A stretch of 64,000 nt of DNA, from assembly GCA_028715965.1 (NCBI GenBank), contig JAQUQS010000005.1, positions 54,904 through 118,903 on the forward strand, written 5' to 3'. The notes under the pieces are model-generated. The model made no database searches. It was not told the origin of the DNA and saw only the letters and a list, made by a program, of their open reading frames with translations. Below, in pieces: positions 35,435-39,015 of the stretch; positions within the stretch are counted from its first letter, which is position 1; every line of letters begins with the position of its first letter. The DNA is from Candidatus Omnitrophota bacterium. Its GTDB lineage: Bacteria > Omnitrophota > Gorgyraeia > Tantalellales > Tantalellaceae. The position numbers and the translations under genes are program-made.

Positions 35435-36448
35435 CTATATCAATCCGTCCGTCTCTTTCAGCCCGGACATTATGTTCATGTTCTGTACGGCCTGGCCGCT
35501 GGCCCCTTTGAGCAGGTTATCAATAACAGAGACTATGATCAGCATGCCCCTGGCGACCTTTATGCCGATGTCGCAGAAGTTCGTACCTGCCGCGCCGGCT
35601 ATATCAGGCATTACCCCTTCGGGCATAAGCCTGACAAAAGGCTCATTCCCATAGGCCGCCTGGAACATCTCCCGCAAGTCCTTTTCCGGCGGTAATCCCT
35701 TATGCTCGACATATATGGTCGAAAGGATACCCCTCCTTACGGGCAAGAGATGCGGAACAAAATTCACTTTTATCTCTCCCTCAGCCGCCAACGACAATAT
35801 GGATTCCATTTCCGGTATATGCTGGTGGGCGTTCTCCTTATAACTTTTGAAATTACCGTCCACCTCGGTAAAGGAAAGCTCGACGGCGGATTTCCTTCCG
35901 GCTCCGGAAGCCCCGCTCTTGGAATCGACTATCACGGTAAGCCCGAGTTCCGACAACATCTTAGCGATGGGCATAAGTCCGAGGATCACACTTGTAGGAT
36001 AACATCCCGGGTTAGCCACCAGTGAAGCGCCACCGATATTTTTCCTGTTCATCTCCGGAAGGCCATAAACAGCCGAACTTATGTTCTTTTTGTCCCCGTG
36101 CTCGATCCCGTAATGGCTGGCATATACATCCGCGTTAAGACGGTAATCGGCGCTAAGGTCCACGACCTTAACTCCCCTCTCCAGGAATTGCGGAGCGACT
36201 TGCATGGACACGGTGTGTGGCAGCGCAAGGAATACCAGGTCACTGCCCTCGGACACCTCGTCCACATCCAGTTTTTTGCAGTAAAGCTCCGTCCGCCCCG
36301 CGAACCTCCGATAAACATCGGCGTATCTTGTCTCTTTATCGAACCTTGCCGTAAGAAAAGATATGTCAGTTCCCGGATGCTTTAGAAGGAGGTCCACCAG
36401 TTCCTGCCCGGAATACCCGGTAGCTCCGACCACCGATACCTTGACCAT
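35435..36448 (-). CDS. argC: N-acetyl-gamma-glutamyl-phosphate reductase
   Basis: MVKVSVVGATGYSGQEL.. and a catalytic Cys region. Start at Met8 of the track ORF. Confidence 0.9.
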   Translation of the reverse strand: MVKVSVVGATGYSGQELVDLLLKHPGTDISFLTARFDKETRYADVYRRFAGRTELYCKKLDVDEVSEGSDLVFLALPHTVSMQVAPQFLERGVKVVDLSADYRLNADVYASHYGIEHGDKKNISSAVYGLPEMNRKNIGGASLVANPGCYPTSVILGLMPIAKMLSELGLTVIVDSKSGASGAGRKSAVELSFTEVDGNFKSYKENAHQHIPEMESILSLAAEGEIKVNFVPHLLPVRRGILSTIYVEHKGLPPEKDLREMFQAAYGNEPFVRLMPEGVMPDIAGAAGTNFCDIGIKVARGMLIIVSVIDNLLKGASGQAVQNMNIMSGLKETDGLI

Positions 36449-36555
36449 TTTGTCTCCTTTTCGCCTCATATAAATACCCCGTGCCTAGTGATAATTAATT
36501 ATAACTAACATGTATAGTTTGGGTTATATATAATAAGCCTTTGGTGTGAAACACA

Positions 36556-36584
36556 AGTATAAGATAAATATTATTTGATGTCAA
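36556..36584 (-). promoter_or_regulatory. Consensus sigma70 promoter for the arg operon (TTGACA-17-TATACT)
   Basis: Minus strand reads TTGACATCAAATAATATTTATCTTATACT. The -35 is plus 36579-36584 and the -10 is plus 36556-36561. The leader to argC is about 100 nt. Confidence 0.6.
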
Positions 36585-36631
36585 TCAAAAACCCATGACA
36601 GCCCGGTCACGTTCCACCGCGGGAACGCTAT

Positions 36632-36664
36632 AAAAAAAGGCGGACCATTTTTCAATGATCCGCC
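36632..36664 (-). terminator. Rho-independent terminator downstream of rpsI
   Basis: Hairpin GGCGGA-N14-TCCGCC followed by a T7 run on the minus strand (A-run at plus 36632-36638). Confidence 0.65.
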
Positions 36665-36710
36665 AGCGAGCTCAACGCCTTTTCCACCGGGAAGTACGGG
36701 CAGAAAAGAA

Positions 36711-37106
36711 CTATCTCTTAGAGAACTGGAATCTTTTGCGTGCTCTTTTACGACCGTACTTCTTACGTTCTTTCGCTCTTGGGTCCCTGGTAAAGAAACC
36801 GGCCTTTTTAAGCTTGAGGCGCAGGCTCTCATCTGCCTTCAAAAGCGCCCTTGATATACCCAACCTCAAGGCCCCCGCCTGACCGCTTATCCCACCGCCA
36901 TCTATCGTGGCCAGTACGTCATATTTTCCCTGCAGGCCAGCGAGCTTGAACGGCATCATTACATCAATGCGGTGTGTCTCTCTGGGGAAGTATTCCTCAA
37001 ACTCGCGTTTGTTGATCTTGACCTTACCCGTCCCGGGTCTGAGCCTTACCCTGGCTACAGACTCTTTTCTTCTCCCGACGGCCACGAACTCAATAAGTTG
37101 TTCCAT
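36711..37106 (-). CDS. rpsI: 30S ribosomal protein S9
   Basis: 131 aa with the [21 protein letters not shown]-terminus. Confidence 0.95.
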
Positions 37107-37122
37107 TTATTAGCACCTCTTG

Positions 37123-37548
37123 TTATATCTTTTTTTCAACCGGTTTCTGCGCCGTATGAGGATGCGCCTCACCAACATACAGCTTAAGTCTCTTCATCAT
37201 CCTGTCCCCGAGCCTGTTCTTCGGAAGCATACCCTTGACCGCGTGCCTCAGTATATGTTTCGGGTGTTTCTCCTGCATATCCGAATAAACGGTCACTCTC
37301 TGCCCTCCGGGATATCCCGAGAATCTTTTGTATTCCTTCTGAAGGCTCTTCTTGCCCGTTATCTTGATCTTTTCGCAGTTAAGGACAACAACACCTGCTC
37401 CATTATCAACATGCGGGGTAAAATCAGTACGGTACTTCCCTTTCAACAGGGTCGCGATAGCCGTAGCCGCCCTGCCCAGCACTTTGCCCTGGACATCAAC
37501 AACGAACCATTCGTGACAGGTTTCCTCATTTTTTACCATTTTAGTCAT
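37123..37548 (-). CDS. rplM: 50S ribosomal protein L13
   Basis: MTKMVKNEETCHEWFVVD.. aligns to the E. coli L13 N-terminus, so the start is the internal Met11 of the track ORF. Confidence 0.9.
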   Translation of the reverse strand: MTKMVKNEETCHEWFVVDVQGKVLGRAATAIATLLKGKYRTDFTPHVDNGAGVVVLNCEKIKITGKKSLQKEYKRFSGYPGGQRVTVYSDMQEKHPKHILRHAVKGMLPKNRLGDRMMKRLKLYVGEAHPHTAQKPVEKKI

Positions 37549-37786
37549 CTTCATGTGCGATCCATCCTCAATGATCATTTATAAATATAATAAGATCAGG
37601 CACCATATGTCATAACACCGAAATGCCAAATAGAGTTGTAAAATTAACATATTTAATAAGGTTTGTCAAGCTGAAAAATATATTAACCGTGTGGCAGGGC
37701 ATCGGGACCTCCCTCCACGGGAAAGACGGAGAACCTTTGTCCCGGCGGGATATGTCCTGGGCTTGATGTTATCCCCTTGCGAGCAT

Positions 37787-37956
37787 CACTTACCGATCAC
37801 ATTTTCGTATAACGCCCTCACCTGGTCCTTATAATACCGGTTGAACACCGATTTGAGTTCGGTCTCCCGTACGTTCTTTCGGAGAAAATCGCTTCTTTTC
37901 TTGTTCTTACGGCGTTGTTCTACCAGGGTCACCTTGTGTGAATAGTTCTTTTTCAT
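37787..37956 (-). CDS. 56-aa highly basic hypothetical protein, translationally coupled to the AbrB-fold gene (not in ORF track)
   Basis: ATG at 37956 overlaps the upstream TGA (ATGA) and a GGGGGG RBS precedes it. Translation: MKKNYSHKVTLVEQRRKNKKRSDFLRKNVRETELKSVFNRYYKDQVRALYENVIGK, stop at 37787-37789. No recognisable family. Confidence 0.5.
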
Positions 37957-38126
37957 CCGTATCCCCCCTTATCCTTCTTGGCAAAGACCACGGTACCGTC
38001 ATCCCTCACCTCAAATATCACTTTATCCCTGCTTTGTATCTGGAAATAATCCTGTAAGACCTTGGGAATGAAGATCTGTCCCCGGTCTGAAACTGTTGCC
38101 TTGAACTCAAAACGCGGTTTGCGCAT
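37953..38126 (-). CDS. AbrB/MazE (SpoVT-AbrB swapped-hairpin) family small DNA-binding protein, antitoxin-like
   Basis: MRKPRFEFKATVSDRGQIFIPKVLQDYFQIQSRDKVIFEVRDDGTVVFAKK.. is a typical looped-hinge AbrB/MazE fold. Start at 38126 with a GGAGG RBS. The track start at 38156 is a TTG inside the repeat array. Confidence 0.7.
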   Translation of the reverse strand: MRKPRFEFKATVSDRGQIFIPKVLQDYFQIQSRDKVIFEVRDDGTVVFAKKDKGGYG

Positions 38127-38141
38127 AACGAATAACCTCCA

Positions 38142-38181
38142 ACAAGTATAAAACAAGTATATAACAAGTATTTATACTTGT
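38142..38181. promoter_or_regulatory. Iteron/operator array: ACAAGTAT x3 at 11-bp phasing plus an inverted copy
   Basis: Direct copies start at 38142, 38153 and 38164. An inverted ATACTTGT at 38174-38181 forms ACAAGTAT-tt-ATACTTGT with copy 3. The array lies immediately upstream of the RBS of the AbrB-fold gene. Confidence 0.65.
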
Positions 38182-38280
38182 CAATAAAACATAAGACTAT
38201 TTTTTGGAATAAGTTACAAGATATTATTTTGGAAATTAGATAGTGAAAATGACCTACATATGACGTTCAGAACGCGAGGA

Positions 38281-39015
38281 TCAGTATCTCACTTCGACAA
38301 GGAACAGCCCTTTGGCAGGCGCAGTGGGACCGGCGTGTACCCTATCCTTTTTCTCCAGTATGGCCTTCATGCTGCCCGGGGGGAGGTATCCCCTTCCGAT
38401 ATCCACCAGCGTACCCACTACGTTACGTACCATATTGTACAGGAACCCGTCGCCCTTAACGGTCACGTGCACGTTCTTCCCGGCCTTACGGATACTTATA
38501 CCGGATATGGTCCGCACGGCCCCCCTTTCGATCTTGTCCTTTGCCTGAAATGACTTGAAATCATGTTTGCCCAGAAGCGCCCTGGACTCCTTCCGCATAA
38601 GAGCGATATCCAGCCGGTATGGCACCCTCCAGGAATATTTCTCGATAAAAGGGTCCCTCTGGCGCGAGTTGAAGATATGATATGTATATTTCTTAGAGAC
38701 CGCGCTGAAACGTACGTGGAAATCGGCATCGACCTCTTCCGCCGAGATGACCGAGATGGTCTCAGGCAATACCGGATTTAGCGCGAGAGGCAACTTTTCC
38801 ACGGGTATGGTGTGCGAGGTCTTGAACCCGACCACCTGGCCAAGCGCGTGTACACCCGAATCCGTGCGGCTGGCCCCATGTACCCTGTGCTTACGCCCCA
38901 GCACCCGCCCTAGCGCGCGTTCCATCATTTCCTGTACGGTCAGGCCGTTATCCTGGAATTGCCATCCCTTGTAGTCCGTACCGTCATAGGCGATCACAAG
39001 TTTAATGTTACGCAT
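38281..39015 (-). CDS. truA: tRNA pseudouridine(38-40) synthase
   Basis: IAYDGTDYKGWQ.., RTDSGVHA catalytic Asp motif. Confidence 0.9.
   Translation of the reverse strand: MRNIKLVIAYDGTDYKGWQFQDNGLTVQEMMERALGRVLGRKHRVHGASRTDSGVHALGQVVGFKTSHTIPVEKLPLALNPVLPETISVISAEEVDADFHVRFSAVSKKYTYHIFNSRQRDPFIEKYSWRVPYRLDIALMRKESRALLGKHDFKSFQAKDKIERGAVRTISGISIRKAGKNVHVTVKGDGFLYNMVRNVVGTLVDIGRGYLPPGSMKAILEKKDRVHAGPTAPAKGLFLVEVRY

What the first reader, a model, noticed from the sequence alone, without database searches (positions are those of the whole stretch)
38142..38181. Helically phased ACAAGTAT iterons ending in an inverted copy, upstream of the AbrB-fold gene
Three direct copies of ACAAGTAT(A) start at 38142, 38153 and 38164, spaced exactly 11 bp, one helical turn. 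They are followed by an inverted ATACTTGT that forms ACAAGTAT-tt-ATACTTGT. The array sits between the probable promoter and the GGAGG RBS. This is the classic layout of an autoregulatory operator for AbrB/MazE-type swapped-hairpin regulators, which bind phased short repeats. The track's TTG-start ORF (38156) begins inside this array and is probably spurious.
Basis: seen in the sequence. Interest (0 to 1): 0.62.

Follow-up and report, generated by a model that had tools for sequence, protein, structure and literature searches.

The report
Conserved repressor boxes inside a promoter
Four phased copies of an 8-base word are built into the promoter of a tiny AbrB-type regulator gene, and the same promoter-plus-boxes is kept almost unchanged in front of this gene pair across the uncultured phylum Omnitrophota, so it is very likely the regulator's own repressor binding site.

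Summary
ACAAGTAT occurs on the + strand at 38142, 38153 and 38164, exactly 11 bp apart, with an inverted copy at 38174-38181. No simulated window reproduced such an array.

The gene lies on the minus strand. In gene orientation the array is not between promoter and RBS. It contains the promoter: TTGACA (38184..38179), a 17-nt spacer, then TATACT (38161..38156). The boxes cover the -35 element, the spacer, the -10 element and the predicted start site.

All 57 related Omnitrophota loci carry TTGACAAGTAT-nn-ATACTTGT-nnT-ATACTTGT upstream of the gene, with extra boxes only at +11 and +22. Operator identity is 87%, against 31-36% in the flanks and 45% at synonymous sites.

The 57-aa AbrB/PrlF-like protein has an invariant TVSDRGQIFIP stretch. 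It is always followed by an orphan ~58-aa basic protein. Genomes hold 2-3 paralogous copies in conserved housekeeping positions, upstream of rplM, icd or pfk, all with the same operator. Two loci keep the operator and partner gene but have no AbrB gene.

Best reading: the array is a promoter-occluding auto- and cross-repression operator. It is not a canonical toxin-antitoxin module. DNA binding is inferred, not shown.

The parts
38174..38181 (-). Box 1. Reads ACAAGTAT in gene orientation, inverted relative to boxes 2-4. Overlaps the 3' half of the -35 hexamer.
   Evidence: Present at this offset in 58/58 loci.
38164..38171 (-). Box 2. Reads ATACTTGT in gene orientation, inside the 17-nt promoter spacer. 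Forms the palindrome ACAAGTAT-AA-ATACTTGT with box 1.
   Evidence: Matches at >=7/8 in 47/58 loci and >=6/8 in 53/58. Flipped in L012 and L038.
38153..38160 (-). Box 3. Reads ATACTTGT and overlaps the -10 hexamer TATACT.
   Evidence: Matches at >=7/8 in 55/58 loci. Partly a promoter constraint.
38142..38149 (-). Box 4. Reads ATACTTGT at about +1 to +8 of the predicted transcript, just upstream of the RBS.
   Evidence: Matches at >=7/8 in 12/58 loci and >=6/8 in 22/58, always exactly 11 bp after box 3.
38179..38184 (-). -35 hexamer TTGACA.
   Evidence: 11/12 match with the -10 hexamer. Invariant in 58 loci.
38156..38161 (-). -10 hexamer TATACT, 17 nt after the -35 hexamer. The spurious TTG ORF start at 38156 lies here.
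38136..38140 (-). Ribosome-binding site GGAGG, 9 nt before the ATG.
   Evidence: Read directly from the sequence.
37953..38126 (-). Gene for a 57-aa AbrB/PrlF-like swapped-hairpin DNA-binding protein (ATG at 38126). Putative repressor.
   Evidence: Pfam PF15937, 32.7 bits against a cut-off of 32. PDB profile hits to the SpoVT N-domain and 2glw. 21 invariant columns, including TVSDRGQIFIPK. Predicted secondary structure beta-alpha-beta-beta.
37786..37956 (-). Gene for the obligate partner, a 56-aa basic orphan protein. Overlaps the AbrB gene by 4 nt. Disordered Lys/Arg-rich N-terminal half plus a conserved C-terminal helix (VFNxYYKDQVxALY).
   Evidence: Present downstream in 58/58 loci. No Pfam, NCBIfam, PADLOC or PDB match. 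AF2 model with helix 31-54. Only 99 representatives among 1.84 billion proteins.

Best explanation
The four boxes are the operator of a small operon, on the minus strand, that encodes a minimal 57-aa AbrB-fold DNA-binding protein and an obligate 56-aa basic partner. The boxes have the core AC-WW-GT within ATACTTGT. They lie on one face of the helix, with 8-mer centres spaced 10, 11 and 11 bp apart. They are interleaved with a near-consensus sigma-70 promoter: box 1 on the -35 element, box 2 in the spacer, box 3 on the -10 element and box 4 on the start site. Dimers of the AbrB-fold protein would each bind one pseudo-palindromic box and assemble cooperatively along the array, possibly bridged or modulated by the partner. 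This would exclude RNA polymerase and give negative autoregulation. Paralogous copies in the same genome carry the same boxes and the same invariant DNA-reading loop, so the copies should also repress one another in trans. SHOWN: the repeat geometry, the overlap with the promoter consensus, purifying selection on the boxes, strict linkage to the gene pair, and the AbrB-superfamily assignment. INFERRED: that this protein is the binder, that binding represses, the stoichiometry, and the partner's role.
For: Geometry and significance. Promoter overlap: TTGACA-17-TATACT, 11/12 match.

Conservation: TTGACAAGTA lies 75-226 nt upstream of the conserved codons in 57/57 loci that were retrieved by protein match alone. 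Those loci come from 41 species-level Omnitrophota assemblies. Boxes occur only at offsets 3, 13, 24, 35 and 46. Mean pairwise identity of the operator is 0.87, or 0.79 without the two hexamers. The flanks score 0.31-0.36, and third codon positions of the invariant peptide score 0.45.

Box 2 is flipped in L012 and L038 while the phasing is kept, which argues for a modular protein site rather than a promoter feature.

Specificity: a PWM scan of the 64-kb window plus 305 kb of loci finds no other strong composite site. In a motif-only metagenome scan, 15 hits carry the third box. Of the 14 that can be tested, 12 precede an AbrB homologue and 2 precede a partner-only gene.

Protein: the DNA-reading stretch is invariant, and there are AbrB-superfamily hits.

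Precedent: MraZ binds 3-4 direct boxes at 10-bp period with the TSS inside box 1 (PMC12957436). MazE has three adjacent dimer sites (PMC4333400). Each VapB2 swapped-hairpin dimer reads one internally pseudo-palindromic site of about 10 bp (PMC3326315).
Against: No binding, footprint or TSS data exist, because the phylum is essentially uncultured and no paper mentions this family. Promoters in this phylum are unusually well conserved in general. The rplM and argC promoters also keep spacer or discriminator bases, and the argC promoter shares TATACTT(G). Part of the conservation of box 3 is therefore promoter constraint. The operator is linked to the partner gene at least as tightly as to the AbrB gene (58/58 loci, plus two partner-only loci), so the partner could be the binder or an essential co-binder. 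The monomer model gives only a weak fold match (SpoVT, probability 0.82, E 0.7).
Confidence: 0.72

Rival explanations
1. Promoter architecture only. The repeats are overlapping promoter elements (TATACT-like -10 hexamers with a preferred TGT discriminator and an AT-rich spacer), conserved because Omnitrophota promoters are strongly constrained. No dedicated repressor binds them.
For: TATACTT(G) also follows TTGACA-17 in the argC promoter of about 20 loci. The rplM promoter is likewise conserved through part of its spacer in 27/27 loci. Box 4 contains a second TATACT.
Against: AGTAT after the -35 hexamer and ATACTTGT in the middle of the spacer are absent from the argC and rplM promoters. The same 8-mer recurs in inverted orientation, and at +11 and +22 where no matching -35 exists. 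Box 2 can flip (L012, L038). The composite is found only at this gene pair.
Confidence: 0.08
2. The boxes are a real operator, but the binder is not the AbrB-fold protein alone. It is either the basic partner protein (or an obligate AbrB-partner complex), or an unlinked regulator.
For: The partner is present in 58/58 loci. Two loci, L112 and L165, keep the operator and partner but have no AbrB gene. The partner has a Lys/Arg-rich N-terminal half and a helix that could oligomerise. The AbrB protein lacks any C-terminal oligomerisation or tail domain.
Against: The AbrB fold is an established DNA-binding domain, and its reading loop is invariant here. The partner has no recognisable DNA-binding fold and varies much more, with 43-44% mean column identity and two subtypes, while the boxes do not vary. 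Partner-only loci are explained equally well by trans-acting AbrB paralogues.
Confidence: 0.15
3. The locus is a canonical type II toxin-antitoxin module of PrlF-YhaV or MazEF type, with the small downstream protein as the toxin and the boxes as a conditional-cooperativity operator.
For: Bicistronic operon with a 4-nt overlap. Pfam PrlF_antitoxin hit. Operator in the promoter. Several copies per genome.
Against: The antitoxin-like protein is only the 57-aa DNA-binding domain, with no toxin-binding tail. The partner matches no toxin family and is predicted to be a disordered basic segment plus one helix. The copies sit in conserved syntenic housekeeping positions across the phylum, rather than patchily on mobile DNA. 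The NCBIfam PrlF equivalog scores 32 bits against a cut-off of 125. There are no viral hits for the composite operator.
Confidence: 0.1
4. The array is a set of replication-type iterons, or a chance repeat.
For: Only the word used in the finding's title, and the tandem 11-bp spacing.
Against: 0 of 300 simulated windows show such an array. All flanking genes (argC to leuB) run on the same strand, with no initiator gene nearby. The element is a conserved promoter of a chromosomal operon.
Confidence: 0.01

Closest known systems
MraZ and its boxes upstream of the dcw cluster
   Same: The DNA-binding protein has the AbrB/MazE/MraZ-superfamily fold. There are 3-4 short boxes in direct repeat at about one helical turn. 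The boxes sit at the protein's own promoter, with the TSS inside a box. The boxes contribute cooperatively and stepwise. The box sequence is conserved across taxa (PMC12957436).
   Different: MraZ is a ~150-aa protein with two AbrB-like domains that forms octamer or dodecamer rings. Its boxes are GTG(G/T)+N6, all direct. It heads the dcw cluster. Here the protein is a single 57-aa domain, the first box is inverted, the boxes are interleaved with the -35 and -10 elements, and an orphan partner gene follows.
AbrB-type antitoxin operators (MazE 'cab' sites; Rickettsia VapB2; PrlF/SohA)
   Same: A small swapped-hairpin protein encoded first in a bicistronic operon represses its own promoter through adjacent dimer sites. 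Each site is internally pseudo-palindromic (PMC4333400; PMC3326315). The best Pfam hit is PrlF_antitoxin.
   Different: There is no toxin-binding C-terminal tail and no recognisable toxin. The loci are conserved and syntenic, and paralogues share an identical operator. The box word is different.
Bacillus AbrB/Abh/SpoVT transition-state regulators
   Same: The N-terminal fold is the same: profile hits to the SpoVT N-domain at E 6e-4 and to Abh. These regulators autoregulate at their own promoters (from my own knowledge of the AbrB literature).
   Different: AbrB has a C-terminal tetramerisation domain and binds many targets with little sequence consensus. Here there is a strict 8-bp word, no C-terminal domain, and apparently a regulon limited to the module itself.

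Membership tests
AbrB/MazE/SpoVT (swapped-hairpin) DNA-binding superfamily | Sequence match to the ~45-residue looped-hinge/swapped-hairpin domain. | tested here: met
   PF15937 scores 32.7 bits (cut-off 32) and PF04014 has E 0.003. TIGR01439 scores 26.9 bits, just under its cut-off of 28.3. The PDB profile hits 2glw at 2.6e-5 and SpoVT 2ro5 at 6e-4.
AbrB/MazE/SpoVT (swapped-hairpin) DNA-binding superfamily | Intertwined homodimer forming the swapped-hairpin barrel. | tested here: inconclusive
   The monomer AF2 model has the expected order beta1-loop-alpha-beta-beta, with pLDDT 80. Foldseek gives only SpoVT at probability 0.82, E 0.7. No multimer prediction was available.
PrlF-YhaV type II toxin-antitoxin system | Full-length PrlF antitoxin (~110 aa) with a C-terminal toxin-neutralising region. 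| tested here: not met
   The protein is 57 aa and matches only positions 2-45 of the 99-position profile. The NCBIfam PrlF equivalog scores 32.3 bits against a cut-off of 125.
PrlF-YhaV type II toxin-antitoxin system | A YhaV or other RelE/MazF/PIN-type toxin encoded downstream. | tested here: not met
   The downstream 56-aa protein has no Pfam, NCBIfam, PADLOC or PDB match. It is modelled as a disordered segment plus a single helix.
MraZ | Two tandem AbrB-like domains in one chain; first gene of the dcw cluster next to rsmH (mraW); GTG(G/T) boxes. | tested here: not met
   The protein has a single domain of 57 aa. The neighbours are truA and rplM, or icd, or pfk. The boxes read ATACTTGT.
Autoregulatory operator (functional class) | Specific binding of the operon's own product to the site, with repression of the promoter. 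| not testable with these tools
   Only comparative evidence is available: conservation, phasing, promoter overlap and linkage.
Autoregulatory operator (functional class) | The site is conserved with the regulator gene across orthologues and overlaps core promoter elements. | tested here: met
   Conserved in 58/58 loci. The boxes overlap the -35 element, the spacer, the -10 element and +1.

The most novel reading that the evidence does not exclude
The Omnitrophota 'minimal AbrB + orphan basic-helix protein' pair may be an undescribed, phylum-wide regulatory circuit rather than a toxin-antitoxin module. In this reading, 2-3 ancient paralogous copies are parked next to core operons (rplM-rpsI, icd-guaA, pfk). 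Occasional partner-only genes belong to the same circuit. All share one invariant promoter-operator and one invariant DNA-reading loop, so they form a single cross-repressing pool. The partner would supply, in trans, the oligomerisation or modulatory module that other AbrB proteins carry in cis. Alternatively, the partner may be a new kind of effector whose dose this circuit buffers.
Probability: 0.3. Interest if true: 0.7.

Novelty: new variant of a known kind. Interest (0 to 1): 0.55.

Why it matters
Omnitrophota are uncultured, often ultra-small bacteria, and I found no paper that mentions this regulator family. This locus gives a precise, experimentally tractable cis-element. It has four defined 8-bp boxes inside a consensus sigma-70-type promoter that should fire in E. 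coli. It also gives a 57-aa candidate binder and an orphan partner, all conserved phylum-wide. It would be a clean model for how a bare swapped-hairpin domain reads phased boxes. It would also show how paralogous copies share one operator. Finally, it corrects gene calls, because TTG starts inside the operator recur in other loci such as L005.

Tried and rejected
1. My first motif scan of viral and metagenome contigs used the wrong spacer length (5 N instead of 6) and found nothing. I repeated it with TTGACAAGTAWWWWTACTTG.

2. The palindrome alone is not specific. About 105 of the 122 hits are unrelated AT-rich palindromes, such as the soil-contig sequence TTGACAAGTATATATACTTGTCA, with no AbrB gene. 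Only hits that also carry the third box are module-linked.

3. An Rfam scan of 36400-38400 gave no credible RNA family, so an RNA-element reading was dropped.

4. I asked whether the module promoter drives rplM-rpsI. That is not needed, because rplM has its own promoter, conserved in 27/27 loci. Terminators between the two are rare, so read-through remains possible.

5. I looked for regulon members elsewhere. The other ACAAGTAT singles in the window (44867, 59148, 63036) are inside coding regions. The copy at 36553 is the -10 region of the argC promoter and scores only 10 bits.

6. I searched for a Rosetta-stone AbrB-partner fusion. The exhaustive profile search found none. The one long hit (P0248, 631 aa) is a repetitive chance match.

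7. A Foldseek search with the AbrB monomer was uninformative beyond SpoVT. I did not run a fold search on the partner, because a single helix cannot give a meaningful match.

8. Literature searches for Omnitrophota/Omnitrophica together with AbrB/SpoVT returned no papers.

Full report
**1. The observation**

On the + strand, ACAAGTAT starts at 38142, 38153 and 38164. The true repeat unit is the 9-mer AACAAGTAT from 38141, with spacing of 11 and 11. Its reverse complement ATACTTGT lies at 38174-38181, separated by 'tt'.

The 8-mer occurs 8 times in the window against 1.0 expected (0 of 100 shuffles reach 8), and four copies lie within 40 bp. I also ran an unbiased test: any exact 8-mer occurring three times at equal spacing of 9-12 bp. 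It finds only this site in the real window and nothing in 300 Markov-simulated windows.

**2. Anatomy in gene orientation**

The AbrB-fold gene is on the minus strand. It runs from the ATG at 38126 to the stop at 37953 and encodes 57 aa, with GGAGG at 38140..38136. Read on that strand, the region is:

TTGACAAGTATAAATACTTGTTATATACTTGTTTTATACTTGTTGGAGG

The consensus scan finds one strong sigma-70-type promoter here: TTGACA (38184..38179), a 17-nt spacer, then TATACT (38161..38156), an 11/12 match.

- Box 1 (inverted, ACAAGTAT) overlaps the -35 element.
- Box 2 lies in the spacer.
- Box 3 overlaps the -10 element.
- Box 4 covers about +1 to +8.

That is incorrect, because the array contains the promoter. 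The TTG start at 38156 falls inside the -10 hexamer.

**3. The proteins**

The 57-aa protein matches Pfam PrlF_antitoxin (32.7 bits, cut-off 32; N-terminal domain only) and MazE_antitoxin. It also matches NCBIfam AbrB-domain models, and in profile form it matches the SpoVT N-domain, Abh and 2glw in the PDB. Its AF2 model has the expected strand-loop-helix-strand-strand order. Foldseek on the monomer gives only a weak SpoVT match.

It has 112 close relatives of about 57 aa. Every one that a source names is from Omnitrophota. There are 21 invariant columns, including TVSDRGQIFIPK-LQ.

The downstream ORF (37956..37786, 56 aa) overlaps the AbrB gene by 4 nt. It is basic and has no Pfam, NCBIfam, PADLOC or PDB match. 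It belongs to a small orphan family: 122 clusters, and 99 representatives among 1.84 billion proteins. The AF2 model gives a disordered Lys/Arg-rich N-terminal half and a confident helix at residues 31-54 that carries the motif VFNxYYKDQVxALY.

**4.

A protein-based scan of one genome per species returned 57 loci from 41 Omnitrophota assemblies.

- In all 57, TTGACAAGTA lies 75-226 nt upstream of the conserved codons. The consensus is TTGACAAGTAt..ataCTTGtt.TATACTTGtta.
- Counting matches to the box at every offset gives peaks only at five positions. Offset 3 (inverted) has 58/58 loci. Offset 13 has 47 loci at >=7/8. Offset 24 has 55. Offset 35 has 12, or 22 at >=6/8. Offset 46 has 1, or 4 at >=6/8. 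This is a strict 10, 11, 11, 11 phasing with decreasing occupancy.
- Mean pairwise identity is 0.87 for the 32-bp operator, or 0.79 without the two hexamers. It is 0.36 and 0.31 for the flanks, and 0.45 for third codon positions of the invariant peptide. The loci are therefore saturated at neutral sites and the boxes are under selection.
- In L012 and L038 box 2 is flipped (inverted-inverted-direct) while the phasing is kept. That is expected of a modular protein site, not of a promoter feature.
- The partner gene follows the AbrB gene in 58/58 loci.

**5. Specificity**

A PWM built from the sites finds no other strong composite site in the window or in 305 kb of loci.

I then ran a motif-only scan of metagenomes with the palindrome TTGACAAGTAWWWWTACTTG. 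It returned 122 hits, most of them unrelated palindromes. The 15 hits that also carry the third box are different. Of the 14 that can be tested, 12 precede an AbrB homologue. The other two, L112 (upstream of rplM) and L165, precede a partner-like gene with no AbrB gene. This implies regulation in trans. No viral contig carries the composite.

**6. Genomic context**

The copies are not patchy mobile cassettes.

- 26 loci plus the window sit in the arrangement leuB-asd-truA-[module]-rplM-rpsI-argC.
- 9 loci sit upstream of icd-guaA.
- 8 loci sit between a dtd/cupin cluster and pfk.
- 14 loci are elsewhere.

Fifteen assemblies hold at least 2 copies, typically one rplM-type plus one icd- or pfk-type. 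All carry the same operator and the same reading loop, so cross-repression is expected.

rplM has its own promoter, conserved in 27/27 loci, so the module is not simply the rplM promoter.

**7. Caveat**

Promoters in this phylum are strongly conserved in general. The argC promoter reads TTGACA-17-TATACTTgg in about 20 loci.

That scenario does not explain four things: the AGTAT after the -35 element, the ATACTTGT in mid-spacer, the inverted copy, the extra boxes at +11 and +22, or the flipped variants.

**8. Mechanism**

In the VapB2-DNA crystal structure, each swapped-hairpin dimer reads one internally pseudo-palindromic site of about 10 bp (PMC3326315). The box here has a pseudo-palindromic core, AC-WW-GT. 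That explains why direct and inverted copies can be mixed.

MraZ binds 3-4 direct boxes at 10-bp period, with the TSS in box 1 and stepwise cooperative repression (PMC12957436). MazE uses three adjacent sites (PMC4333400).

By analogy, up to four dimers would line one face of the DNA across the -35 element, spacer, -10 element and +1 and occlude RNA polymerase. That would give negative auto- and cross-regulation. The partner's role is inferred only: co-repressor or bridge, anti-repressor, or effector.

**9. Comparison and novelty**

The kind of element is known: an AbrB-superfamily autoregulatory operator. Membership of PrlF-YhaV, MazEF, MraZ or Bacillus AbrB proper fails on defining features: length and domain make-up, partner gene, genomic context and box sequence.

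The following are undescribed as far as the searched literature shows: the phylum-wide invariance, the sharing of one operator among conserved paralogues and partner-only genes, and the obligate orphan partner. I rate it a new variant of a known kind, with moderate interest.

Noticed in passing
window 37641-37669 (minus strand): rplM has its own promoter, TTGACA-17-TAATTT, with an extended -10 TGT. The motif cTTGACAAa..AAATATGTTAATTTTAC is conserved in 27/27 rplM-type loci. The consensus scan missed it.
   Followed up: partly
window 36551-36584 (minus strand): The argC promoter reads TTGACA-17-TATACTTGT and holds the lone intergenic ACAAGTAT at 36553. The pattern TTGACA-17-TATACTTgg is conserved in about 20 loci, after an intrinsic terminator of rpsI. 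TATACTT(G) therefore appears to be a general -10 context in Omnitrophota.
   Followed up: partly
L112:672-980 and L165:899-630 (minus strand): The full composite operator is followed only by a partner-like gene, with no AbrB gene. L112 lies upstream of rplM and L165 lies upstream of a response-regulator gene. This implies the operator is served in trans.
   Followed up: partly
L012:2934-2968 and L038:2942-2976: Variant operator with the second box flipped: TTGACAAGTAT-nnn-ACAAGTAT-AT-ATACTTGT. The palindrome is moved one box downstream and the phasing is kept.
   Followed up: partly
L067, L068, L072, L074-L076, L079 and about 35 other metagenome loci: Soil and sludge contigs carry a perfect palindrome TTGACAAGTATATATACTTGTCA(A) flanked by GTCAAG words, with no AbrB gene downstream. 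This is probably the operator of an unrelated regulator in another taxon.
   Followed up: no
L042:2965-3003: The ATG of the AbrB gene lies 7 nt after TATACT, which suggests a leaderless mRNA in this paralogue and supports the -10 assignment.
   Followed up: no
L034:3197-3305; L010, L049 and L056 between the two genes: L034 has an extra AbrB-like fragment between the AbrB and partner genes. Three other loci have 220-450 nt inserted between the two genes.
   Followed up: no
window 37678-37718 (minus strand): A GC-rich hairpin (about -11 kcal/mol) followed by a T-run lies between the partner stop codon and the rplM promoter. It is a weak terminator candidate. Most orthologous loci lack one.
   Followed up: partly
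window, whole: Almost all long ORFs from about 2.7 kb to 63.7 kb are on the minus strand, so the region is strongly co-oriented. The window corresponds to contig JAQTUB010000003.1 of an Omnitrophica MAG, GCA_028710465.1.
   Followed up: no
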